From the IMG/VR virus record IMGVR_UViG_3300046694_000619: DNA of 64,000 nucleotides; one strand, given 5' to 3'. The DNA is from a virus. Taxonomy: Duplodnaviria > Caudoviricetes. Each line of letters starts with the position of its first letter. The first letter of the stretch is position 1. The translations under genes and the position numbers were made by a program. The notes beneath the pieces were generated by a model, which made no database searches, had not been told where the DNA came from, and saw only the letters and a program-made list of their open reading frames with translations. Below are positions 8,900-63,197 of the stretch, piece by piece.

Positions 8900-10150
8900 T
8901 CAGGCCGCGACGGCAACAGGCCTCACCGACGATTTGCGACAAGGCACAATCGTGTCGCGTGTTGGTCCCCACGAGCAAAACGCAACGGGCAACACCCGGT
9001 GGCTGGCCATGAAGACCAGTTCGTCCGGCGAGACTACGTGCGTTTCGGCATCCAGTCGCACGCGCGCCGCCGCGCCAACCTGGTCCAGACATGTCACAGC
9101 CGTCTGTGCGGTGATGTCGATGCGCGCGCCGAACGCTTCGGCTAGGTCAGACCCGATGGCAACTGCAAGCTGGTCCAGGTCCAGGTCGGCGAAGCGCAGG
9201 GACCCTTGGTACTCGTTCGGTTGATTCGTGAGGTCGACAACGCCTTCATAGGGCCGACCAGGCAACTCGTTTGCCAGCGGCCCGGCACCATGCCGCGTTA
9301 GGTACGCGCGGGTCACGTAGGTGACATCCAAGGCCTCGATGCCGGCTTCGCTTGCTACGTCGAGAACGTTGCGAAGCCCCGTGTTCGACCGGGTCACATA
9401 GGGGAATGCACCCTGATGCTGGTCGAGCAGCAGCCCCTGCGCGCCTTCGAACACGACATTGTCCGAGAGCAGGATAGGCGCCGCGGCACCCGACAACAAC
9501 GTGACATCACCCAGGAATTCCTGCGCGGCCTCGATAAAGGCGTCCACCAGCACGTCCGTTGTGCACAGCTTATGATGCTTGCCAAAATCCGGCAGCCCCA
9601 GTTCCTTGATGCGGACGGGCAGGTGGAAATCGCGAATCTCGATGAGTTTTGCGCGCAACGCGTCAACGTCTTGCAGGTCACCAGCCGTCAGCGCAAACGT
9701 GCCGGCTTCCATGCGCCCGATGGTCTCGCCAAAACCCATGCCGCAGCTGCCGTGTCGCTTCGCACCGCGAAAATCCTCGACGAGCTGGTTCACCAGCATG
9801 TCGAAGAAGGTGGTCACTGGCGCGCGCTCGTCCACGTAGAGCGTCGTAAGCTTGCCGAGGAGAGGCAGGAGTTTCGCGCGCTCCTTGAGATAAAGCATGG
9901 GATTGACCGCAAAGTGCCGCGACAGGTACGTCTTCGCGCCCGCGAACGTGCCGGCGCCGAAATGGCTGAAAGCATGTCGCGTGCCGTCCGGCGTGGTGAC
10001 GGTGTGACTCGCCTGGCAGCCACCGTTGAAACGCACGACGAGGCTGTTATCGCTCTGTGACGCGAAGTAATCGGTCATGAGACCCTTTCCTTCATCCCCG
10101 TAGTTCGCGCCGATGACCACTTTTGCCGAGCGCTTGCGAAGCTGTGTCAT
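8900..10150 (-). CDS. Divergent adenylosuccinate synthetase (PurA)-like protein
   Basis: GANYGDEGKG P-loop, RFNGGCQASHT, FEGAQGLLLD, PYVTRSNTG, YLTRHGAGP; the aspartate loop GATTGR is absent. Confidence 0.9.
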   Translation of the reverse strand: MTQLRKRSAKVVIGANYGDEGKGLMTDYFASQSDNSLVVRFNGGCQASHTVTTPDGTRHAFSHFGAGTFAGAKTYLSRHFAVNPMLYLKERAKLLPLLGKLTTLYVDERAPVTTFFDMLVNQLVEDFRGAKRHGSCGMGFGETIGRMEAGTFALTAGDLQDVDALRAKLIEIRDFHLPVRIKELGLPDFGKHHKLCTTDVLVDAFIEAAQEFLGDVTLLSGAAAPILLSDNVVFEGAQGLLLDQHQGAFPYVTRSNTGLRNVLDVASEAGIEALDVTYVTRAYLTRHGAGPLANELPGRPYEGVVDLTNQPNEYQGSLRFADLDLDQLAVAIGSDLAEAFGARIDITAQTAVTCLDQVGAAARVRLDAETHVVSPDELVFMASHRVLPVAFCSWGPTRDTIVPCRKSSVRPVAVAA

Positions 10151-10968: not shown

Positions 10969-13242
10969 TTAAGCGAGGTAGTCAGCGATGAGCACTTCTG
11001 CGTCGTAGGCCGTGACCACTTTCTGGTCAGCCTTCACCGGCACGATGGCGGTCGGCAGCTTGCTTGTGAAAACGATGTCCGCTTCCAGCGCGGTGGCCAC
11101 CCGCTCGCCACGCGCGTTGACGTGGTCAGCGAGCAGGGCGCCTAGCGTCGGTCGAACCGGATTGACGATGCCGCGCGCCATCTGCGTCGTCAGGATGGTC
11201 GCCGTCTCCACAGCATTGAAGCCGCTGCAGCGTGCCGGCAGCACCAGGTCCGCCCATACGAACTGACGTCGCGCGATGTCCACATAGCCAACCAGGATGC
11301 GCTCGCCTGCCGCCGTCAGGTCGACCTTCTGGCGCACGGTGCGTGCGTCATAGATGGCGCCGCTCTGTTCGTCGACGCGCGACATCCAGCCCAGATACGC
11401 TTCGGGCATATCGCCGAAGTTCTGCTTGGTGTACGAAAATGCGACCAGCGCGATGTACGCGGCGTCAACAGGGAGTTTGCGGAAGTCGATGTCGATGAAC
11501 TCGCACGCGCCCTCCGGCGCCGACGTAATGTCGCCGCTGTGCGTCATGCCTTCCGCGCGCAACTGCGTGAAGCTGCAGTGCGTCACATAGTTGAAGCTTT
11601 CGTCGAGCACCGAGCAGGACAGGTCCAGGTCGGTACGGCCGATGGAGTAGGGCTCGCCACTCTTATCGAGGCCTTGCTCATTCCACCACAGGAACGCGCG
11701 CATGATGGAATCGGGGCCCAGGTCGATACGCGAGCCGCGACCTACCGTCAGCAGCGACTTCTGCGCGGTACGCTGCGCAAACGGAACGCTGATGCCGTCC
11801 AGTGCAGGGTCGATATACACCTTGCCCATCGCCGGCAGCTTGGCGAAGCGCGCCGCCAGCACGTCGGACACCGTTTTGACGACGAATTCGTTGGCGCTCT
11901 CGGTCAGCCGCGGCGAACCGTTCTGCGGCACCCACATGCGGGCAGCGCCGCCCTTCGGCGAGAACGCGCGCACACCATCCTGGTCCACCGCCATGCGGTG
12001 ACGCAGTTGCACGAGGACCGGCGTCGAGACCTTGTCGGCCACAGTTGCGAAGGCCTTGAGCACCGCTTCCTTGTTCGCGCCCGTCGCCTTGCGTACGGTT
12101 TCATGCAGCTTGCGAGCGAACACACCCGGACGCTGCACGAGAAGGTCGATGGCAGCCAGGGTGTTGCGCGATGCAAGGCGCGATTCCACCGTACCGGCCC
12201 AGCTCACGGGCATGTCGTTCTTGCGCAGCGCCGTGAAGTGCTCGTAGGCACGCTTGAAGCGGGCTTGATACTCGCCCGGATGCAGCGCTTCCCCCAGGCG
12301 TACCCATTGCTCGCGTCGCTGGAACATCTCCGAGCGCACCGACTCAGCGCTGAGGCTGTCGAGGAGGCCCAGCAACAGGCGGCGCAGGCCACGAGAGACC
12401 TTGCCAAAGCGCGGCGGCTTGGACAGCGTCAGGTCTGCATCCTTGAGGTTGGCCGCGCCGACAGCGGCGGCCAGGCGCAGCACGTCGGTTGGTGTCTGGA
12501 AGAAGCGCGCGAACTCAGCGGCTTCGAACGTCGCCGGCGTGTGCGTCAGCAGCCAGCCGCCGACCAGCGCGCGGTGTTCTTTTTGCGGGATGGTTGCCTG
12601 TTCCTTGAGCATTTCGAGCAGGCGGCCAGGATAGACTTCGCTGAAATACGAGAGCAGCTCGAGCGTCACTTCCTTGTTGGCCACCGACATCGAGGCATTG
12701 CCGTTGATAAGGCGCAGCAACTGGTCATAGACGGCCGTGCGCGGTGCAAGCGCCAGGGTGGTCGGCTTCATGTGCTCGAGCATCTTGAGCGCCGGTCGCT
12801 TTGACGCCGTGTACCGAGGCAGCACACGCACCCCCATCCAGTCGCCACGATAGTGCGCCCAGGCGTTAGAGAGCAATTCCGCGTCGGAAGCTTCGAGCAC
12901 CTGTTCCGGAAAATCCGGGTACATCGGGGAATACACGCGATGCGCGCCCAGAGCGTGGCTCAGGATGTGTACGAGGTTGGTGTGGACGTGAACGAGGTCG
13001 ACTTCGGGCATCCACGACAGCGTCAGGATAGCGTCCTGGCCGTAGACGAAGCCGAGATACTCGAGAGTCAGCTCGCTGTGAAGAGCGCGGTCCATGCTGG
13101 GACCGGGATTGCCGAGTGCGCTTTCGCGCTGCGAAGCAGCGTCAACGGCGGGCAGTGCCAGCTTGCCGTTGCGAACGAGAGCCGCGAGAATGTTGAATTC
13201 ACGGGTGTTAACTCGAAATCCTGCGTCAGCGAGCGTGAGCAT
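10969..13242 (-). CDS. Large helical-domain protein with C-terminal TerD-like domain (757 aa)
   Basis: YSPMYPDFPEQV, RREQWVRLGEALHPGEY, RPGVFARKL; TerD motifs DLDLS, HSGDITSAPEGACEFIDID, FVWAD. Start set at ATG 13242 after GAGGA. Confidence 0.85.
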   Translation of the reverse strand: MLTLADAGFRVNTREFNILAALVRNGKLALPAVDAASQRESALGNPGPSMDRALHSELTLEYLGFVYGQDAILTLSWMPEVDLVHVHTNLVHILSHALGAHRVYSPMYPDFPEQVLEASDAELLSNAWAHYRGDWMGVRVLPRYTASKRPALKMLEHMKPTTLALAPRTAVYDQLLRLINGNASMSVANKEVTLELLSYFSEVYPGRLLEMLKEQATIPQKEHRALVGGWLLTHTPATFEAAEFARFFQTPTDVLRLAAAVGAANLKDADLTLSKPPRFGKVSRGLRRLLLGLLDSLSAESVRSEMFQRREQWVRLGEALHPGEYQARFKRAYEHFTALRKNDMPVSWAGTVESRLASRNTLAAIDLLVQRPGVFARKLHETVRKATGANKEAVLKAFATVADKVSTPVLVQLRHRMAVDQDGVRAFSPKGGAARMWVPQNGSPRLTESANEFVVKTVSDVLAARFAKLPAMGKVYIDPALDGISVPFAQRTAQKSLLTVGRGSRIDLGPDSIMRAFLWWNEQGLDKSGEPYSIGRTDLDLSCSVLDESFNYVTHCSFTQLRAEGMTHSGDITSAPEGACEFIDIDFRKLPVDAAYIALVAFSYTKQNFGDMPEAYLGWMSRVDEQSGAIYDARTVRQKVDLTAAGERILVGYVDIARRQFVWADLVLPARCSGFNAVETATILTTQMARGIVNPVRPTLGALLADHVNARGERVATALEADIVFTSKLPTAIVPVKADQKVVTAYDAEVLIADYLA

Positions 13243-13271
13243 GTATGTCCTCGGATAGCGTATAAATAACG

Positions 13272-13445
13272 AACAGGCTACCCGCAGGAAAGCAATACGG
13301 GATGCCGTCTGGCATCCCGTATCACCACTTCTGGAGCAGGAGAGCAGCGCCGCTAGTTTCCAATGTGAGTTGAGTAGAAGGAAGCCGCGCAATAGCCTGC
13401 AAAACCTGTCAGCTGCCGAATACTTTCGTTCAACAACCGACTTGA
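13272..13445 (-). ncRNA. Candidate structured RNA or leader upstream of the TerD-domain gene
   Basis: Own sigma70 promoter; 5' hairpin; CAGGCTA/TAGCCTG closing stem; perfect 12-bp internal hairpin at 13295-13322. Confidence 0.6.
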
Positions 13446-13451
13446 GAGCAC

Positions 13452-13480
13452 AGTATATACCGATAACGCGCTCGCGTCAA
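13452..13480 (-). promoter_or_regulatory. Sigma70 promoter
   Basis: TTGACG-N17-TATACT on the minus strand. Confidence 0.75.
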
Positions 13481-13498
13481 CCGCGATTTTAGTATATC

Positions 13499-14404
13499 TC
13501 AGAATCGCGTCAATGCCGTTCCTGCGGCGCGTCCCGGCTGCAGCGCATTCAGTCCGCGTGCGACGACCATCGACGTGCTGCCCGACCACGACTTCACCGT
13601 GGCGTCGACACTGGTGCCTTCGATAACCTGAATGGTCGACACGATGAGCTCAGCCATCTTCGTGTGGTCCGACAGCGGCAGTGCGCGCTCGCCGAGCAGT
13701 GCCTTCCAGTTCGCCTTGACTGACGAATCGCACGAGTTGCTTTCTTCGACGAGCAGATGGAAGACGTGATAGCTGCGGCTGGCCATGGTCAGCAGCTCTT
13801 CCGAAGTCAGGTCGCGCTCGATGTCGTCACCAAACACACGCTGGACCTGCGCGCGAGTGAGCACGTTGTGCGGATTCTCGTCGCCGACCGTGAAAAGATA
13901 GCCCTTCTTCTTGCGCTTTTCGAAACAGTCGATGGACGTATGACGCGCGGCGAAGTACCACGGCAGGTGGTAGCTCTCGCCGCCGTTGCCCCCGCCATGG
14001 CCTTCCAGCCAGATTTGCGACAGCTGCGTAGCGATGCGGATGTCGGCCTCGAACTGCGTCACCTGCAGCGGCGCCTTGTCCGAGTACGCGTCACCTACAC
14101 CCATGCACGCGATATGCGGGTCGGCGACCGGCTTGCGCGCAATCAGTTCTTCGACGAGGACGCCCATACCCGTTCTCACCAGGACGTCCGCGAGTTTGCC
14201 CATTGAACCCGTTACGTCGCCAGCGACGATGATGGCAGTCGAATTCGGATTGGCCGCTGAGTCGCGCGATTCACGCATCGCGACACCGTGCGGATTGAGG
14301 TCCGGGTGCATGTGGTTTTGGCTGAACACCTGTGCGGTCGACTTCGTGCTTGTGCTCGACGAGAACGAATCCCAGTCGGTGGAACTCCAGTTGCTTGAAC
14401 CCAT
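13499..14404 (-). CDS. vWA-domain protein
   Basis: MIDAS DVTGSM, MGVGDA..D.APLQV.QFE, EGHGGGNGGESY, FTVGDE; AGGAG RBS. Confidence 0.85.
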   Translation of the reverse strand: MGSSNWSSTDWDSFSSSTSTKSTAQVFSQNHMHPDLNPHGVAMRESRDSAANPNSTAIIVAGDVTGSMGKLADVLVRTGMGVLVEELIARKPVADPHIACMGVGDAYSDKAPLQVTQFEADIRIATQLSQIWLEGHGGGNGGESYHLPWYFAARHTSIDCFEKRKKKGYLFTVGDENPHNVLTRAQVQRVFGDDIERDLTSEELLTMASRSYHVFHLLVEESNSCDSSVKANWKALLGERALPLSDHTKMAELIVSTIQVIEGTSVDATVKSWSGSTSMVVARGLNALQPGRAAGTALTRF

Positions 14405-22032: not shown

Positions 22033-22440
22033 ATGTTCAACCTCAATCAACCGAATACCGGCAGGCCGGCGCACATCTCAGGCGCGAACCAGTCATCCCA
22101 GTTTCTACAGGCCGCAAAGGCCTTGCCGTGCTGGCGCACCATGCCTTACCGGTCCGTCGAAGTGTCGTTCCCGGAAGGCAGTTGCTTCCAGCTGCGCGCC
22201 TCGGACCTTGCCATCAAAGCCACCAGCCGCATCCTGATTCCCGGCGGCGAGCCCATGATGCATCTCCTGGTGCAGGTGGTACCCCTGCTACGCGAGCGCC
22301 CCGAGTTCCTCATCGAAGTCGCATCCGGGCTGAGCTGGCCGGAGCTGTGCGAGCTGGCCTGCGATGCATTCTGGCGCTCCCCTTGCACCGTGCTGGCACA
22401 GCAGTTCGGCAGGAAAGCGAAGCTTAGCCTGCACGCTTGA
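22033..22440 (+). CDS. Hypothetical protein
   Basis: ORF directly after the sigma70 promoter; weak RBS. Confidence 0.5.
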   Translation: MFNLNQPNTGRPAHISGANQSSQFLQAAKALPCWRTMPYRSVEVSFPEGSCFQLRASDLAIKATSRILIPGGEPMMHLLVQVVPLLRERPEFLIEVASGLSWPELCELACDAFWRSPCTVLAQQFGRKAKLSLHA

Positions 22441-34243: not shown

Positions 34244-34564
34244 ATGATTTCAGGCTCCCTGTTTTTCATCCTCATGCTGCTTGCTGCGGGCGCCATGCTG
34301 AAGCTGTCTGAACGATTGCTGGTGCTGTTTCTCGGCGGCGCATGCCTGCTTGTGTTGATACCAACAGGCATCTTCATTGCCGAAAGCCAGAGCTGGCGTG
34401 AGCACGTCCTGAACAACACCACTACCGTCGGCCTGGTGCTCATAACGCTTGTCGCCATTGGCTCGATAGGCGCGCTCGCCTGCGCGCTGTCGGCGGTATT
34501 GCGGGTGCTCATCGCAACCGTTCGTGCACTTCGCTCAAAGAAGGGAAGGCAACAAATTGCTTGA
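34244..34564 (+). CDS. Small membrane protein
   Basis: Three hydrophobic segments. Confidence 0.5.
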   Translation: MISGSLFFILMLLAAGAMLKLSERLLVLFLGGACLLVLIPTGIFIAESQSWREHVLNNTTTVGLVLITLVAIGSIGALACALSAVLRVLIATVRALRSKKGRQQIA

Positions 34565-34589
34565 CACAATGTGATTGTCAAGCTATACT
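34561..34589 (+). promoter_or_regulatory. Sigma70 promoter of the tmRNA gene
   Basis: TTGACA-N17-TATACT. Confidence 0.85.
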
Positions 34590-34592
34590 AGC

Positions 34593-34860
34593 ATTCATCG
34601 TTGTAATTCCTCTGGAATTGAAATTCGGCGGAAAAGGGTTCGACTCCCTTCACCTCCACCAAATGCGCATTTGTCAAGTACGTATTTGATGGGGGTGCCC
34701 AGGTTTCGACGTCGTGCGGAGATGAAGGCGGCAACGCGGGCAGGCGACTTCCCGGTGAGCTTCGGCTTGCGAACAGAGCAAAATCGTTAAATGCAAACGA
34801 TGAATCGTACCTGATGGTCGCTTGACCGTCCGGGGCCGCGCCTGCCCTGTGAAATAAATG
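34593..34860 (+). ncRNA. ssrA: Circularly permuted (two-piece) tmRNA, tag ANDESYLMVA
   Basis: Acceptor piece AAGGGTTCGACTCCCTT-CACCTCC-ACCA ends at 34661, upstream of the 5' piece GGGGGTG...TTCGAC at 34691; G3.U70 pair; resume codon GCA at 34793 and TGA at 34823-34825. Confidence 0.92.
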
Positions 34861-34864
34861 CGTG

Positions 34865-34899
34865 GAAACCCAGGCCTCGCGGTCTGGGTTTTTCTTTTT
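34865..34899 (+). terminator. tmRNA terminator
   Basis: GAAACCCAGGCC-TCGC-GGTCTGGGTTTT followed by a T-run. Confidence 0.75.
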
Positions 34900-34939: not shown

Positions 34940-36955
34940 ATGCTGTTCAAGAACAAGATTTCAATCGCGGTTGCTTCCGCGCTGTTGCTGGCCGCCGGTC
35001 ACGCTATCGCGTCCGACTATTATGTCGTTGTGCCTGTCCCGAACCATACGGCGGATTCATCGGCCATCAACGTGACACTGGGCGGGGCGTCGCTACCGGC
35101 AGGGCAGGTCGGAATGCCGTATCAAGGCTTCGACCTCAAACCGTTGCTCTCGGTCACAGGTGACGCGACCTACACGGGTTATGGCGTGCGATGGAGCATC
35201 GCTTCTGGAAGCCTGCCCGCTGGGCTCACGCTCAACAGCAACGGCACCATCAGCGGCACCCCGGCCGCGGGCGGCACGTTCTCGTTTCAGGTGCTGGCCG
35301 CCTATAAGACGAAGGCCGGCCAGCAGGCGTATCAGATTCTCGTTGCCGACATCAAGGTCTCGCTCGATGCGGCTTCGCCGCCACAAGCCGTTGTGGGCGC
35401 TGCATACAGCTATGACCTGCGGCCGCTGCTGTCGGTCACAGGCGATGGCGCATACACGGGCCAGAACGTCACGTGGTCGATGGTCTCCAGTTCGCTGCCC
35501 GCGGGCCTGTATCTCACCTCCGATGGTTTCATCGGTGGCACGCCGAGCACCTCTGGAACTGGAAGCCTTACCGCGCGCGCGACGTACAGAAATAGCAGTG
35601 GCCAACAGACTTACCAGGTGGTGTCTGTCTACAGCATCAGCGTGGTGTTGGGCTCGAGCACGCCGACCCAGGCGATTGTCGGCCAGGCGTACACGTTCGA
35701 CGCGAAGCCTTTGCTGACCGTCACAGGCGACCCCGCATACACTGGAGACGGTGTGACGTGGGGCATCGCGTCTGGCAGCCTGCCAGCAGGGCTGTCTCTG
35801 TCGGCAAACGGCGTCATCACCGGGACACCGACCGCGGCAAGTAGTGGGCCGGTCACCCTGCAGGCGACGTATCGCGGCACCAATGGTCAGCAGACGTACC
35901 AGCTGGTCTCGCTCAACATCGTCGTCAACCTGGGGACGGCCACACTGCCGCTCGCCAACGTCGGCGCAAGCTACTCGTACGACTTCAAGCCCCTTCTTGG
36001 CGTAACAGGGGACTCGAGCTATGCCGTATCGGCGGTGCAATTCCACGCAGGCGCGCTCCCTCCCGGACTCAGCCTGAACGCGACAGGCGTGCTTTCGGGC
36101 ACGCCCACCGTGACTGCGTCTGCACAGAGTTTCTCGGTCGTGGCCGACTATCGCGGGCAGGATGGCACACAGCAGTACGCCATCACCGTAAACCCGGCGT
36201 TCTTTAATTTCAGCCCGACGATTGCAGCCTCTACGGCCAACTATAACCTCTACAACGCTGCGCGAGCCGCCGGCTGGGACGGCGTGGCGCCGCTGAAGGC
36301 GACGGTGACCGTCAACGCCGGTGTCTACGTTGGCGGCTCGTCGACGGGGAGCTACGCGTTCTCGACGGGTACGGGTTTTCCGGCACAGACCAGCCTCAAT
36401 CTGATTAACAACGGTGTCATCGTCGGCAAGGGCGGCGATGGCGGCAGCTGGGGCTTCGGCGGTGGCAATGGCGGCCCGGCTATGCTGGCGCAGTACCCAA
36501 TCAAGGTAACCAACAACGGCACCATCGCGGGTGGCGGTGGGGGCGGTGGCGGCTCCAACCGTGCGACGGTCGCCAACGTGCTGGCAGGCGGCGCGGGTGG
36601 CGGAGGCGGGCAGGGCTATGGAACCTCGGCTGGAGGAGCCGCGGACCCGGCTTTTTCGGGCACGCAATACCCGCAAGGACAACCGGGCTTGACTGGCAAT
36701 ATCACCACGCCGGGACTGGGCGGTACCGGTACTCAATCCGGCATGTTCCCAAACCAGTTTCAGGCGCCTTGGTATGCAATTTCGGGCAACGGAGGCAACG
36801 GCGGACTACTCGGGCAGGCGGGTGCTGCGTCGACGGCCGGACAGTGGGTGCCTAACGTCGGTAGCCTTTCAGGCGGTGCAGCGGGCTATTCCGTCGTCGG
36901 AGCGGCCAACGTAACCTGGTCGGCGACGGGCTCCGTGCTCGGTCCACGACAGTAA
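34940..36955 (+). CDS. Secreted adhesin: 4 putative-Ig repeats + Gly-rich C-terminal domain
   Basis: Signal peptide, DYYVVVPVPN, four SGSLPAGL.L...G.I.GTP-type repeats, tip with NNG.I.G.GG.GG glycine runs. Confidence 0.85.
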   Translation: MLFKNKISIAVASALLLAAGHAIASDYYVVVPVPNHTADSSAINVTLGGASLPAGQVGMPYQGFDLKPLLSVTGDATYTGYGVRWSIASGSLPAGLTLNSNGTISGTPAAGGTFSFQVLAAYKTKAGQQAYQILVADIKVSLDAASPPQAVVGAAYSYDLRPLLSVTGDGAYTGQNVTWSMVSSSLPAGLYLTSDGFIGGTPSTSGTGSLTARATYRNSSGQQTYQVVSVYSISVVLGSSTPTQAIVGQAYTFDAKPLLTVTGDPAYTGDGVTWGIASGSLPAGLSLSANGVITGTPTAASSGPVTLQATYRGTNGQQTYQLVSLNIVVNLGTATLPLANVGASYSYDFKPLLGVTGDSSYAVSAVQFHAGALPPGLSLNATGVLSGTPTVTASAQSFSVVADYRGQDGTQQYAITVNPAFFNFSPTIAASTANYNLYNAARAAGWDGVAPLKATVTVNAGVYVGGSSTGSYAFSTGTGFPAQTSLNLINNGVIVGKGGDGGSWGFGGGNGGPAMLAQYPIKVTNNGTIAGGGGGGGGSNRATVANVLAGGAGGGGGQGYGTSAGGAADPAFSGTQYPQGQPGLTGNITTPGLGGTGTQSGMFPNQFQAPWYAISGNGGNGGLLGQAGAASTAGQWVPNVGSLSGGAAGYSVVGAANVTWSATGSVLGPRQ

Positions 36956-59429: not shown

Positions 59430-61169
59430 ATGAAGCCCCGGTTTACCCTCTCCCGGATTTCGCTTGTCGGTGCCTTGCTCACAGCATCCGCCGCGGCATT
59501 CGCCTCGGACTATTTCGTCGTGGTGCCGGTGCCGAATCGCACTGCCACCGCAGGCAATATTCTCGTGACGCTCCACGGCTATTCGCTACCGGCCGGCGTG
59601 GTCGGCCGCGCATACCCGGGGTTCGACTTCAACTCCGCGCTGCAGGTGCAAGGCGACCCGAGCTATGACCCGGCCAATGTACGCTGGTCTGTTGCGGGCG
59701 GCGCGCTGCCCGCGGGACTCTCGCTTTCCGCCGACGGAAAGCTGGGCGGTACTCCAACAGCGGGCGCGACTTCGAGTTTCCAAGTCCTGGCTGCCTACAA
59801 AACGAAGGCTGGACAGCAGGCTTATCAGGTGCTGGTCGCTGACATCACCGTCGCGCTCGCGGCTGATTCAGCGATGTCTGCCGGTGTCCAGGGCGCACCC
59901 TACAGCTACGACCTGACTTCGCGGCTGACCGTCACTGGCGACGCGCAATACACGCCGGCACAGGTTACATGGTCGCTCGCCGGCGGCTCGCTGCCGGCAG
60001 GCCTGCAGCTGAACACGAACGGCACCATCACCGGCGTGCCGAGCGCGGAGGGGACGTTTCCATTCACGGTAAAGGCCAGCTATCTGAACAAAGCCGGCCA
60101 GCAAAGCTATCAGGTCATCGTAGGCGCCATCACGGTGAGCCTGACGGGCGCCGCGCTGCCGGCAATGCTGGCGGGGGCGGCCATTCCCGCGTATGACCTG
60201 AAGCAGAATCTCTCGATTTCTGGCGACGCAGCCTATGCCGGGGATGGTGCAGGGGTGACCTGGAGCGTCACCGGCTCGCTTCCCGCGGGCCTCACGCTGG
60301 GCGCCGATGGGCGTGTCACGGGCACGCCGACGGCCGTTGGCAACTCAAGCCTCGCGGTCACCGCCGGGTACAAGAGCAAGGTGACGGCCCCGGCCACCTA
60401 CACCATGTCGGTCACCGCCAATCTGAAGGACAACGGCAGCTACCGCGCGTGGTCCGACGGAACGTATGCGGCAAGCTGCCAGGCCTACCTGAGCGCGAGC
60501 GCGCCTTATAACTACGCCGGCGCAACGGGCAATGGGGTGTACCGCGTCAACATCGGCGGGACGCCGACAGACGTCTATTGCAACCAGACGCTCAATGGTG
60601 GCGGCTGGACGCTCGTTATGAAGCAGGCAGCCGGTGACGGCGGGACGTTGGAGGGCGATACGGGCTACTGGACAAGTGGCACGACGCTTAATGACACGGC
60701 GTCCGGGCGTAACACGAACGACGGAAACTTCGTGTCGACGGCCTTCGCGCGCATGAGCGCGACGCAATACATGCTGCAGGCAGCCAACGAGTCTACGGTC
60801 AAGACCTATGTGCGCAGTGCCTCGACGCCGCAATTCGCATTCAGCGATTCAACGCGCACCATGCGGCAAGACCCGAATGGGACCAGCGCAACGACGGACT
60901 GGTTCATCCACACGTCCGCCTATCCGAATGGACAGGCTCTGACGGTTGCCATATTCGGCGTGAACTTCCAGGAACTCTACAGCGCGAACGCCTTTGCGTG
61001 CGGCGCGCGCTGGGGATGGGCCGCCAACCAGGATTCTGGAAGCAGCTTTGTGGGCACGTTCGACGCTTGCGGTGGCTTGGGAGCCTATGGAGACGCCTAC
61101 GGCTCCTCTGGCATGAATGGGACCAAGAATGCCTGGCAGCCGGCCACGCTTTACCTCTGGGCGAAGTAA
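59430..61169 (+). CDS. Secreted adhesin: 3 putative-Ig repeats + fibrinogen-like domain
   Basis: Signal peptide, DYFVVVPVPNRTA; SC..Y...GNGVY...VYCNQTLNGGGWTLV. Confidence 0.85.
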   Translation: MKPRFTLSRISLVGALLTASAAAFASDYFVVVPVPNRTATAGNILVTLHGYSLPAGVVGRAYPGFDFNSALQVQGDPSYDPANVRWSVAGGALPAGLSLSADGKLGGTPTAGATSSFQVLAAYKTKAGQQAYQVLVADITVALAADSAMSAGVQGAPYSYDLTSRLTVTGDAQYTPAQVTWSLAGGSLPAGLQLNTNGTITGVPSAEGTFPFTVKASYLNKAGQQSYQVIVGAITVSLTGAALPAMLAGAAIPAYDLKQNLSISGDAAYAGDGAGVTWSVTGSLPAGLTLGADGRVTGTPTAVGNSSLAVTAGYKSKVTAPATYTMSVTANLKDNGSYRAWSDGTYAASCQAYLSASAPYNYAGATGNGVYRVNIGGTPTDVYCNQTLNGGGWTLVMKQAAGDGGTLEGDTGYWTSGTTLNDTASGRNTNDGNFVSTAFARMSATQYMLQAANESTVKTYVRSASTPQFAFSDSTRTMRQDPNGTSATTDWFIHTSAYPNGQALTVAIFGVNFQELYSANAFACGARWGWAANQDSGSSFVGTFDACGGLGAYGDAYGSSGMNGTKNAWQPATLYLWAK

Positions 61170-61196
61170 CCACCGCCCCCACGACACGGAATCACA

Positions 61197-63197
61197 ATGA
61201 ACAGATTCACGATGAAAAAAATCGCCATTGCAGCGCTGCTTTCGGCCAGCATGGCGCCGGCCTTTGCCGCTAACTATTACGTCGTGGTGCCAGTACCGAA
61301 TCGCACCGCTACCGCGGGCAACATCCTGGTCAGCCTCAACGGCTACGGTCTGCCGCAAGGTCAGGTTGGCGACGCTTACGCGGGCTTCGACTTCAACAGC
61401 GTGCTGCAGGTTAAAGGCGACCCGGGTTTCGACGCCAGCAGCGTGCGCTGGTCTATGGCCAGCGGTGCGCTTCCCGCGGGACTTTCGCTTGGCGCGGATG
61501 GCAAACTTACCGGCACTCCGACGGTGGCGGGCACAGCGAGCTTCCAGGTGTTGGCCGCCTACAAGACCAAGGCCGGGCAGCAGGCCTACACGGTGACCGT
61601 CAACAACCTGGTCGTGACTCTTGCGTCCGGCGGGCTTCCCACGGGTGTGCAGGGTGCCGCATACAGCTTCGACCTGAAAGCGCGGCTGTCGGTCAGTGGA
61701 GACCCCGCATACACAGGTGCGGGTGTGACCTGGAGTGTGTCATCGGGAAGCCTGCCCTCAGGCCTGAGTCTCGGAGCCGATGGCGTCATCTCTGGCGTGC
61801 CCACCGACGAAAACGCTGGAACTCCGTTCACTGTGAAGGCGGCCTACAAGACCCGAGCGGGTCAGCAGGTCTACCAGGTTGTTGTGGGCGCTATCGTCGT
61901 GACACTGAGCAATGCCGCGCTTCCCGCGGGAAAGCAGGGCGCTGCCTACTCGTTCGACTTGAGCTCAAAGCTCCAGGTGACCGGCGACGCGGCCTACGCA
62001 GGCTCGGCTGTGACGTGGAGTGTGGTATCGGGCAGCCTGCCCGCCGGCCTGAGGCTTGGCGCGAATGGCGTCATCTCTGGCGTGCCGACGGCGGAGAGCA
62101 CCGGTACGCCATTCACTGTACAGGCGACCTACAAGGCGAAGAACGGCCAGCAGTCGTATCTGGTGACGGTCCCCGCTATTGTGGTGTCGCTCTCCGCGAC
62201 GACCCTGCCGAAAGCCACCAACAACGAAGCCTACAGCTTTAATTTCAGCCCTTACGTGAGCGTTACCGGTGACGCAGCCTATGGCGGCTCCGGCATTACA
62301 TGGTCCGTTGCAAGCGGCACGTTGCCGGTGGGACTGACGCTTGATTCGACGACAGGCATCCTTTCGGGCAAACCGGTCGGTGCGACGACGGGCACCTCCG
62401 TGACGGTGCAGGCCGCATACAAGACCAAGACGGGGCAGTACGCCTACAGCCTGGTCGTGGCCACAACGCCGGTCGTTCTGGCACCGACGAGTTTTGCAAG
62501 CGGCGGCACGCCTCAGGCAATGTTCTACGAGGACCAGACCGTCGCTGCGTCCTGCAAGAACTATCACGCGGGCAACGCTAACTACGCGGCGGCGACCGCC
62601 AGCGGCTACTACTGGGTCAACATGGGCGCGGGTATCGAGCGCGCGTATTGCGACATGACGACCGCGGGAGGTGGATGGACGCTTGTCGCGCGCTCGGGCG
62701 GGGCAGTCGTGACCAATGCGACGTACTGCAACGCGGGCGTCTCGGGCGTGAATACGCCGTTCGGATGGTCAGTCGCGCGTGGTTCGCCGGGCGATACGAG
62801 CAACCCCTACTCGATGGGCGTATTCACGCGCAGCCTTGCCTTCTCCGAAGTCCTGATTGGCGATGCCTCGGGCACGTCCAACAGCTGGGGCGCGCACGTG
62901 TTTCAGCAGCCGGTTCCAGCCAACTTCAGGACCGCCCTGACGACGACCGACGTGCCACTGCCGGTGGCCGCCGCATTCCCGATGGCTCAATACATGGGCC
63001 ATACCACGGACGCCACGCAGTATTTCTTCCGGGATGTGCCTGATGGCACACGAAGCCAGGCGCAGGCCTACGGGCTTCACGCCGATGGTTGGCAGACCTG
63101 CTATGGCGACGGTCCGAACACGCTGTCGCCACAAGCGTTCCCCGCCAGCTACGGCGGAAGCATCAACTATCGTCACGGCATGTTGATGGTTCGGTGA
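61197..63197 (+). CDS. Secreted adhesin: 4 putative-Ig repeats + fibrinogen-like domain
   Basis: Signal peptide, NYYVVVPVPNRTA; SCK.Y...SGYYW...AYCDMTTAGGGWTLV; ends MLMVR. Confidence 0.85.
   Translation: MNRFTMKKIAIAALLSASMAPAFAANYYVVVPVPNRTATAGNILVSLNGYGLPQGQVGDAYAGFDFNSVLQVKGDPGFDASSVRWSMASGALPAGLSLGADGKLTGTPTVAGTASFQVLAAYKTKAGQQAYTVTVNNLVVTLASGGLPTGVQGAAYSFDLKARLSVSGDPAYTGAGVTWSVSSGSLPSGLSLGADGVISGVPTDENAGTPFTVKAAYKTRAGQQVYQVVVGAIVVTLSNAALPAGKQGAAYSFDLSSKLQVTGDAAYAGSAVTWSVVSGSLPAGLRLGANGVISGVPTAESTGTPFTVQATYKAKNGQQSYLVTVPAIVVSLSATTLPKATNNEAYSFNFSPYVSVTGDAAYGGSGITWSVASGTLPVGLTLDSTTGILSGKPVGATTGTSVTVQAAYKTKTGQYAYSLVVATTPVVLAPTSFASGGTPQAMFYEDQTVAASCKNYHAGNANYAAATASGYYWVNMGAGIERAYCDMTTAGGGWTLVARSGGAVVTNATYCNAGVSGVNTPFGWSVARGSPGDTSNPYSMGVFTRSLAFSEVLIGDASGTSNSWGAHVFQQPVPANFRTALTTTDVPLPVAAAFPMAQYMGHTTDATQYFFRDVPDGTRSQAQAYGLHADGWQTCYGDGPNTLSPQAFPASYGGSINYRHGMLMVR

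What the first reader, a model, noticed from the sequence alone, without database searches (positions are those of the whole stretch)
13272..13445. Promoter-driven, end-paired structured RNA directly upstream of the helical/TerD gene (Y-RNA-like architecture)
Seen on the minus strand: TTGACG-N17-TATACT, then the hairpin GTCGGTTGTTGAA-CGAAAGTA-TTCGGCAGCTGAC. A ~125-nt domain follows, closed by CAGGCTAT...GTAGCCTG. It contains a GCGCGGCT/AGCGGCGC stem enclosing TCC-TTCTA...TGGAA, a pyrimidine-rich linker (GCTCTCCTGCTCC) and a perfect 12-bp hairpin (13295-13322). The ORF track hides this by extending the CDS 50 codons upstream; the RBS and ATG are at ~13252/13242. Known: Ro60/TROVE helical ring proteins bind Y RNAs with paired ends encoded next to the gene. 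Inference: the ~500-aa helical N-terminus may be a divergent Ro-like toroid with TerD in place of vWA, and this RNA may be its ligand or a cis-regulatory leader.
Basis: partly seen in the sequence, partly recalled or inferred. Interest (0 to 1): 0.8.

Follow-up and report, generated by a model that had tools for sequence, protein, structure and literature searches.

The report
Partner RNA of Ro60-like TerD protein
The gap in front of this gene encodes a small folded RNA from a large RNA family that is absent from Rfam and always sits beside one uncharacterised protein shaped like the RNA-binding ring protein Ro60, so the pair is probably an undescribed cousin of the Ro60/Y-RNA particle.

Summary
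These are two tandem sigma70-like promoters, a 5' hairpin, a structured core, a perfect 12-bp hairpin, and the true start codon at 13242.

The core (13400-13336, minus strand) belongs to a widespread RNA family of about 65 nt. Its layout is P1 CAGG/CCUG, an internal loop CUAU/GCUUU, a covarying P2, and a loop that begins UUCCUUCUA. The family has no Rfam match. Covariation is strong: 94-95% of cells are paired, and the score is 0.58-0.74 against about 0.18 for shuffles.

In 151 evenly sampled genomes of one class, the RNA and the ~700-aa protein occur in exactly the same 10 genomes. They are always adjacent and on the same strand. Copies occur one to six times. They lie upstream of the gene or 1-16 nt after its stop codon.

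The protein's residues 170-470 fold like Ro60/TROVE (Z 10.7-11.4, the only PDB representatives at Z 8 or more). A TerD sandwich follows where Ro60 has its vWA domain.

It may be an alternative conformer that frees the ribosome-binding site.

Binding and expression are untested. This scan has found the same system before on other DNA.

The parts
13486..13513 (-). Upstream sigma70-like promoter (TTGACG-16-TAAAAT). It overlaps the stop codon of the preceding gene.
   Evidence: Consensus scan, 10 of 12 matches; pattern search. Function is not shown.
13452..13480 (-). Sigma70-like promoter (TTGACG-17-TATACT) that would start the RNA near 13445.
   Evidence: Promoter-like hexamers stand at the same place in L082-L085 in alignment A2.
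13408..13441 (-). 5' hairpin at the start of the transcript (13 pairs, 8-nt loop).
   Evidence: MFE fold. Homologues L082-L086 keep a hairpin here with a different sequence (read by eye).
13336..13400 (-). Conserved 'handle' RNA, the family core. P1 is GCAGG (13400-13396) with CCUGC (13340-13336). The internal loop is CUAU / UGCUCU. P2 is GCGCGGCU (13390-13383) with AGCGGCGC (13354-13347). The loop starts UCCUUCUA.
   Evidence: Model R1 scores 64.8 bits. Leave-out model R2, built only from other phyla, scores 52.9 bits at E 1.8e-11 and gives the only hit in the window. Covariation.
13291..13326 (-). GC-rich hairpin (perfect 12 bp over 13322-13295) followed by UUUCC. It is a probable leaky terminator that ends the small RNA.
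   Evidence: In L082 and L083 the equivalent hairpin of the first RNA copy is followed by UUUUGCUUUG and then a new promoter. The window's hairpin is not called by the terminator scan.
13248..13289 (-). Hairpin that sequesters the Shine-Dalgarno sequence (UCCU-CGGGUAGC ... GCUAUCCG-AGGA).
   Evidence: Fold at -17.7 kcal/mol, z -2.75. Analogous SD-pairing hairpins appear in L082-L086. Forcing the long-range helix costs 1-6 kcal/mol and opens this hairpin in the predicted folds of the window and L082-L085, but not L086.
10969..13242 (-). Gene for the 757-aa partner protein. It has an N-terminal region (1-168), a TROVE/Ro60-like helical domain (about 170-470), a TerD-fold sandwich (about 498-690) and a small C-terminal domain.

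Best explanation
The intergenic region encodes a small non-coding RNA that is the dedicated partner of the protein encoded directly downstream.

Shown here:
- The RNA core (13400-13336) belongs to a family of about 65 nt with two covarying helices and about 25 near-invariant unpaired bases.
- The family occurs only next to genes of one ~700-aa protein family, on the same strand, in about eleven phylum-level groups and in phage contigs.
- The protein's central domain has the Ro60/TROVE fold, followed by a TerD fold.

Inferred:
- The RNA is transcribed from its own promoter (13480-13452) as a molecule of about 150 nt, made of a 5' hairpin, the handle and a leaky terminator hairpin.
- Read-through transcription supplies the mRNA for the protein.
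- The protein binds the handle (P1, internal loop and P2) to form a ribonucleoprotein, as Ro60 binds the stem of Y RNAs.
- In the read-through mRNA, a folded and probably protein-bound handle leaves the downstream UAGCCUG segment free to close a hairpin over the Shine-Dalgarno sequence, which turns translation off.
- An unfolded handle can instead pair CAGGCUA with UAGCCUG, which frees the ribosome-binding site. This would give negative feedback on protein synthesis.
For: Family and structure:
- 89 copies align with 11 of 16 pairs showing compensatory changes.
- 93.8% of cells are paired against 73.6% for shuffles and 38-52% for slid partners. The covariation score is 0.575 against 0.18 and 0.11.
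- An independent set of 112 copies gives 95.4% paired and a score of 0.744.

Membership of the window copy:
- A model built without any Burkholderia-type sequence finds only 13406-13329(-), at E 1.8e-11.

Linkage:
- There are 265 hits at E 0.01 or better across the 159 homologue loci, all on the gene strand.
- 75 of 80 species loci carry the RNA.
- In four whole genomes the only hits lie at the gene locus; a fifth genome (L008's), like its locus, has no hit.
- In 151 evenly drawn genomes of one class, the RNA is in 10 and the protein is in the same 10. Each of the 20 RNA hits lies beside a gene copy.
- No other neighbouring gene is conserved across the loci.

Evidence that it is more than a 5' leader:
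- 16 species have the RNA only 1-16 nt (one case 70 nt) after the stop codon. Several of these have the next gene far away or on the other strand.
- Brevibacillus has a second copy 1.8 kb away, ending in a U-run and followed by a terminator-like hairpin, with opposite-strand ORFs lying between it and the gene.
- Up to six tandem copies occur.

Protein fold:
- Ro60 entries score Z 9.4-11.0 over 323-345 residues, against 5.9 or less for unrelated proteins.
- A Foldseek-independent search of 48,161 chains gives Ro60 of phage phiLo (Z 11.4) and Deinococcus Rsr (Z 10.7) as the only chains at Z 8 or more.

Feedback model:
-.
Against: - No binding, expression or transcript-end data exist, and no RNA-seq run holds this DNA.
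- The protein does not match Pfam TROVE by sequence. A Z of about 11 for a helical-repeat domain is below the level at which fold alone proves homology.
- The RNA lacks the Y RNA hallmarks: it has no Rfam Y_RNA or YrlA match and no GNCGAA-type motif.
- The window's 3' hairpin has a weak U-tract and is not called as a terminator.
- The feedback model rests on seven related leaders, and the invariant CAGGCUA cannot show covariation.
- The many conserved unpaired bases and the P1-plus-U-run arrangement would also suit a riboswitch.
Confidence: 0.62

Rival explanations
1. The RNA is purely a cis-acting autoregulatory operator. The protein binds the handle only in its own mRNA to control termination or translation, as ribosomal-protein leaders do, and no free ribonucleoprotein has a function.
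For: 57 of 75 species loci have the RNA in the 5' leader. In Firmicutes, P1 is followed directly by a U-run. The window's leader has an SD-sequestering hairpin and an alternative long-range helix.
Against: In 16 species the copies lie only after the stop codon. Brevibacillus has a second copy 1.8 kb away with opposite-strand ORFs between it and the gene. Arrays of up to six copies occur. In L082 and L083 the first copy has its own promoter-like and terminator-like signals.
Confidence: 0.17
2. The handle is a metabolite- or ion-sensing riboswitch aptamer. Ligand binding stabilises P1, and P1 with the following U-run or hairpin terminates transcription before the TerD gene.
For: About 25 near-invariant unpaired nucleotides persist across phyla. 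Tandem copies are common. P1 abuts a U-run in many Firmicutes.
Against: The RNA is associated with a single gene family only, 10 of 10 genomes against 0 of 141. In 16 species the RNA lies only downstream of the gene. Brevibacillus has a second copy 1.8 kb away with opposite-strand ORFs between it and the gene. No Rfam riboswitch model matches.
Confidence: 0.1
3. The pair is a type III toxin-antitoxin-like system. The RNA neutralises a harmful TerD protein, and the terminator sets the RNA:protein ratio.
For: The order promoter, RNA copies, terminator, protein gene resembles ToxIN. The family occurs in phages and mobile contexts.
Against: Copies within a locus are diverged and covary rather than being near-identical repeats. 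Many loci have a single copy or a 3' copy. There is no PADLOC match. The protein shows no nuclease fold.
Confidence: 0.05

Closest known systems
Ro60 (Rsr; TROVE + vWA) with Y RNAs: Yrn1 of Deinococcus, YrlA/YrlB of Salmonella and mycobacteria (PMC4201824), and Ro60 of Thermus phage phiLo (PMC12135203)
   Same: Both have a ring-type helical TROVE-fold domain followed by a second domain. Small structured RNAs, one to several, are encoded right beside the gene on the same strand. A stem interrupted by a conserved loop is the likely protein-binding site. Both are found in bacteria and phages.
   Different: There is no sequence match to Pfam TROVE. A TerD sandwich replaces vWA, and there is an extra 168-residue N-terminal region. 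The RNA is shorter (about 65 nt), has a different conserved 5' strand (CAGGCUAU, not GNCGAA/GGUCCGA), has no tRNA-like module in the window copy, and matches no Rfam Y RNA model. Canonical Ro60 genes in the same genomes lie elsewhere.
Autoregulatory ribosomal-protein leaders (for example the L1, S15 and L20 leaders)
   Same: A structured element in the 5' leader of the gene for the protein that presumably binds it. Alternative pairing involves the Shine-Dalgarno region.
   Different: Here the RNA also occurs after the gene, at a distance, and in arrays with their own promoters and terminators.
Type III toxin-antitoxin loci (ToxIN)
   Same: The order promoter, RNA unit(s), terminator, protein gene. 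Both occur in phages and mobile DNA.
   Different: The RNA copies are diverged and independently folded, not identical 36-nt repeats. The protein is not a known endoribonuclease.

Membership tests
Y RNA (Rfam Y_RNA RF00019; YrlA RF02553) | Matches the family covariance model | tested here: not met
   There is no Y RNA hit at E 10 or better in 12900-13800 and none at the gathering score in the whole window. The only YrlA-like hit in related loci is 31.6 bits (cut-off 69), at L148:1497-1568, outside the handle copies.
Y RNA (Rfam Y_RNA RF00019; YrlA RF02553) | Conserved Ro-binding motif near the 5' end (GNCGAAN0-1G in bacteria, GGUCCGA in vertebrates; PMC4201824) | tested here: not met
   The invariant 5' strand of the family is CAGGCUAU. 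No GNCGAA-type motif is conserved.
Y RNA (Rfam Y_RNA RF00019; YrlA RF02553) | A stem formed by the two ends of the RNA, interrupted by a loop or bulge, next to a large loop | tested here: met
   P1 and P2 are separated by the asymmetric internal loop CUAU/GCUUU, with a terminal loop of 20-40 nt. In the window the primary transcript would carry extra hairpins on both sides.
Y RNA (Rfam Y_RNA RF00019; YrlA RF02553) | tRNA-like D/T module (YrlA subfamily) | tested here: not met
   The window's terminal loop is about 27 nt with no tRNA-like arms. ARAGORN and Rfam find nothing there.
Y RNA (Rfam Y_RNA RF00019; YrlA RF02553) | Bound by a Ro60 protein | not testable with these tools
   This needs EMSA or RIP. 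Only genomic linkage to a Ro60-fold protein is shown.
Ro60 / TROVE proteins | Match to Pfam TROVE (PF05731) | tested here: not met
   The full protein has no hit. None of 47 N-terminal domains hits at E 1 or better. The genome search with PF05731 hits other genes, never this one.
Ro60 / TROVE proteins | TROVE helical-repeat fold | tested here: met
   Z 11.4 over 245 aligned residues (rmsd 4.1) to 9l5y_B, and Z 10.7 over 253 residues to 2nvo_A. These are the only two of 48,161 chains at Z 8 or more. Eight Ro60/TROVE entries score Z 9.4-11.0 against 5.9 for the next unrelated protein. The model is predicted (pLDDT 85-87), so this is fold resemblance and not proven homology.
Ro60 / TROVE proteins | C-terminal vWA domain with MIDAS | tested here: not met
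   Residues 498-692 have the TerD fold: Z 15.3 to 3ibz and 15.5 to 9a6r_B.
TerD domain (PF02342) | Sequence match over the Pfam cut-off | tested here: inconclusive
   19.1 bits against a cut-off of 25.3, E 0.001. Some homologues carry a precomputed PF02342 hit. The fold match is clear.
Riboswitch | Sits in the 5' leader of the genes it controls, which share a metabolic theme | tested here: not met
   Only one gene family is ever adjacent. In 16 of 75 species the RNA lies only after the stop codon.
Riboswitch | Binds a small-molecule ligand | not testable with these tools
   This needs in-line probing or ITC.
Type III toxin-antitoxin (ToxIN-like) | Array of near-identical direct RNA repeats upstream of an endoribonuclease toxin | tested here: not met
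   The window has a single copy. Tandem copies elsewhere differ in P2 sequence. There is no PADLOC hit.

The most novel reading that the evidence does not exclude
The handle RNA and the TROVE-fold/TerD protein form a second class of Y-RNA-like ribonucleoprotein, independent of Ro60. It is spread over about eleven phylum-level groups and over phages. The RNA's invariant pyrimidine loop (UUCCUUCUA resembles the 3' tail of 16S rRNA, from my own knowledge) may act as bait or mimic for an RNA-surveillance or conflict function.
Probability: 0.45. Interest if true: 0.88.

Novelty: new variant of a known kind. Interest (0 to 1): 0.8.

Why it matters
Ro60/Y RNA is the only well-studied ring-protein and small-RNA quality-control particle. 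Its bacterial biology is known from a handful of species.

A second particle, far more widespread and built on the same plan, would open a new RNA family of hundreds of members with a clear covariation-backed structure. This one has a different RNA handle and a Ca2+/nucleotide-binding TerD domain instead of vWA. It would give the uncharacterised '~700-aa TerD family / cytoplasmic protein' a testable function. It would also link Ter-type stress and phage-conflict systems to RNA biology.

The pair is compact (one gene plus an RNA of about 65 nt) and occurs in tractable Bacillus, Paenibacillus and Burkholderia strains, so direct tests are easy.

Tried and rejected
- Rfam at E 10 or better on the region, at gathering score on the window and on 10 homologue loci, and at E 0.01 or better on 11 more loci. 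No family covers the handle.
- BLAST of the locus and of the leader against the phage and plasmid collections gave nothing useful.
- An exact-pattern scan of viral contigs found nothing.
- No whole genome is held for the window.
Close relatives come from eight metagenome loci only.
- No RNA holder is listed among the sequencing runs, and read laying was not used, so there is no evidence on expression either way.
- PADLOC, and Pfam for the neighbouring genes, gave no informative hits.
- A PDB sequence search with the protein profile gave nothing.
- Literature searches (TerD+riboswitch, Ro60+TerD, TROVE+TerD, SCO0854, YrlA) found no description of this pair. The library lacks most subscription journals.
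- Not supported: the TCC/TTCTA...TGGAA pairing, because the 3' partner is not conserved in A4.
- Rejected as probable chance: the 16-bit partial hit at 22438-22402. Model R2 does not find it.

Full report
WHAT IS IN THE SEQUENCE

On the minus strand, the 256-nt gap between the preceding gene (stop at 13499) and the ATG at 13242 holds the following features.
- Two adjacent sigma70-like promoters, at 13513-13486 and 13480-13452. The pattern occurs twice in the window where 0.02 is expected.
- A 13-pair hairpin at 13441-13408.
- A structured core.
- A GC-rich hairpin with 12 perfect pairs at 13322-13295.
- A last hairpin that pairs with the GAGGA ribosome-binding site.

The 211-nt leader folds at -84.9 kcal/mol, z = -4.8.

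The 807-codon ORF from TTG 13392 is an artefact. The 757-aa product from ATG 13242 is on record letter for letter, and its homologues (750-762 aa) align from residue 1.

THE RNA IS A MEMBER OF A LARGE FAMILY

Upstream regions of eight close metagenomic relatives (54-77% protein identity) keep GCAGGCUAU..GCUUCCUUCUA..ACUAG..GCUCUCCUG invariant, while the stems between these blocks change in a compensatory way.

A loose pattern then found the same core in front of the homologous gene in distant bacteria, where the proteins are only about 35% identical.

An alignment of 89 copies gives the following consensus:
- P1, with core CAGG/CCUG, extended to 5-7 pairs;
- an asymmetric internal loop, CUA(U) / GCUUU;
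- P2, of 8-10 pairs;
- a terminal loop that begins UUCCUUCUA and ends UAG.

Eleven of 16 pairs show double changes. On this alignment 93.8% of cells are paired, against 73.6% in shuffles and 38-52% when partners are slid. The covariation score is 0.575, against 0.18 and 0.11. A second alignment, made only from species-representative genomes, gives 95.4% paired and a score of 0.744.

A model built from that second set contains no sequence of the window's group. It finds exactly one place in the 64-kb window, 13406-13329 on the minus strand, at 52.9 bits and E 1.8e-11.

No Rfam 15 family matches.

THE RNA IS TIED TO ONE GENE

- Of 80 loci from different species, 75 carry it. In 57 it is upstream, and in 16 it is only downstream, starting 1-16 nt (one case 70 nt) after the stop codon. 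In those 16, the next gene can be hundreds of bases away or on the other strand.
- Copy number runs from one to six (L016).
- Brevibacillus species have a second copy 1.8 kb upstream. It ends in a U-run and is followed by a terminator-like hairpin, and opposite-strand ORFs lie between it and the gene.
- No other neighbouring gene is conserved across the loci.

These loci were chosen through the gene, so I also ran an unanchored test. In 151 genomes drawn evenly from one bacterial class, the RNA is in 10 and the protein is in the same 10. Each of the 20 RNA hits lies beside a gene copy on the same strand, including the second paralogues in two genomes.

Canonical TROVE/Ro60 genes occur in 8 of the 151 genomes. 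Only 5 of those are shared with the RNA-bearing genomes, and the Ro60 genes are never adjacent to the RNA.

In four whole genomes the only hits lie at the gene locus. A fifth genome (the one holding L008), like its locus, has no hit.

THE PROTEIN

- AlphaFold models are confident: pLDDT 84.7 with pTM 0.83 for the whole protein, and pLDDT 87.1 for residues 1-500.
- Residues 498-692 have the TerD fold, with Z 15.3 to 3ibz and 15.5 to 9a6r_B.
- Residues about 170-470 match Ro60. Eight Ro60/TROVE entries from phage phiLo, Xenopus, human and Deinococcus score Z 9.4-11.0 over 323-345 residues, while the next unrelated protein scores 5.9.
- A search that does not depend on Foldseek, against 48,161 representative chains, gives phiLo Ro60 (Z 11.4) and Deinococcus Rsr (Z 10.7) as the only chains at Z 8 or more. 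Xenopus Ro is at rank 7.
- By sequence there is no TROVE match, so this is a fold resemblance and not proven homology.
- NCBIfam's RING_SCO0854 model hits below its cut-off, which shows a related family with an added RING domain.

HOW IT PROBABLY WORKS

Shown: the family, its fold, its exclusive linkage to the gene, and the Ro60-like and TerD folds.

Inferred: the RNA is made from its own promoter as a molecule of about 150 nt that ends at the 13326-13291 hairpin. In L082 and L083 the equivalent hairpin of a first copy is followed by UUUUGCUUUG and a fresh promoter. Read-through gives the mRNA. The protein binds the handle, as Ro60 binds the stem of Y RNAs (PMC4201824).

Its 3' strand does, however, form the 5' arm of an SD-sequestering hairpin that recurs in L082-L086. 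Forcing the long-range helix costs only 1-6 kcal/mol and opens that hairpin in the predicted folds of the window and L082-L085, but not L086. A handle held folded by the protein would therefore keep the ribosome-binding site closed, which would be a simple negative feedback. This part rests on seven sequences and is the weakest step.

RIVALS

- A purely cis-acting operator fits the 5' copies. It does not fit the 3' copies, the distant copy or the arrayed copies.
- A riboswitch fits the many conserved unpaired bases and the P1-plus-U-run arrangement. It does not fit the single-gene association or the downstream copies.
- A type III antitoxin fits the gene order. It does not fit the diverged copies.

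COMPARISON AND NOVELTY

The closest known system is Ro60 with Y RNAs. This pair works on the same plan but fails the membership tests on both sides:
- it matches no Y RNA model or Ro-binding motif;
- the window copy has no tRNA-like module;
- the protein has no TROVE sequence match;
- TerD replaces vWA.

I found no paper describing it, though the searchable library is incomplete.

Notes from this scan show that other agents reached the same reading on other genomes. I saw those notes only after my own structural and linkage results. They did not change my reading.

LIMITS

- There are no expression or binding data.
- Close relatives of the window's leader number only eight.
- Promoters and terminators are consensus matches only.
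- The fold evidence comes from predicted models.

Noticed in passing
window 34547-34892 (+): A betaproteobacterial tmRNA gene: Rfam beta_tmRNA at 116.5 bits and tmRNA_permuted at 106.5 bits. ARAGORN gives the tag peptide ANDESYLMVA. It places the contig in a betaproteobacterium and may mark an island integration site.
   Followed up: no
window 22402-22438 (-): A small hairpin, GCAGGCUA-N7-CGCUUUCCUGC, that copies the P1 and internal-loop letters of the handle without P2 or the loop (R1 16.4 bits, E 0.033). It lies about 30 nt upstream of an ATG, and model R2 does not find it. It is probably chance, but could be a minimal binding site.
   Followed up: partly
window 13499-14404 (-): The 301-aa protein encoded just upstream carries VAGDVTGSMG, a MIDAS-like DxTxS motif. 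It has no Pfam or PDB sequence match. It is conserved only in the Burkholderia-type loci L082-L086, together with the 356-aa, 156-aa and PurA-like genes.
   Followed up: partly
window 8900-10150 (-): A divergent adenylosuccinate-synthetase-like gene: Pfam E 6e-42, and PHROG 'PurZ-type' E 2e-58. It scores far below the NCBIfam cut-offs for both PurA and PurZ.
   Followed up: no
L097, L123, L126, L127, L132 (gut and other metagenome loci); L148:1497-1568: Genuine tRNA genes lie directly beside the handle-RNA arrays. One weak YrlA-like (tRNA-mimic) hit of 31.6 bits lies just upstream of two handle copies. This hints that some loci combine handles with tRNA-like modules.
   Followed up: no
L016:332-990: Six tandem handle copies, about 100-130 nt apart, upstream of the gene in an uncultured-bacterium contig.
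   Followed up: no
window 13356-13382 (-) and family consensus: The invariant loop start, CCUUCCUUCUA, resembles the pyrimidine 3' tail of Firmicute 16S rRNA (CCUCCUUUCUA, from my own knowledge). It may be an anti-Shine-Dalgarno mimic. This was not tested.
   Followed up: no
window 35127-35800 and 59494-62448 (+): Diverged direct repeats with a 285-nt period. They are probably repeated 95-aa domains in large proteins.
   Followed up: no
L097:1802-1884: A RAGATH-27 RNA (88.7 bits, over the gathering score) lies about 1 kb upstream of the handle array.
   Followed up: no
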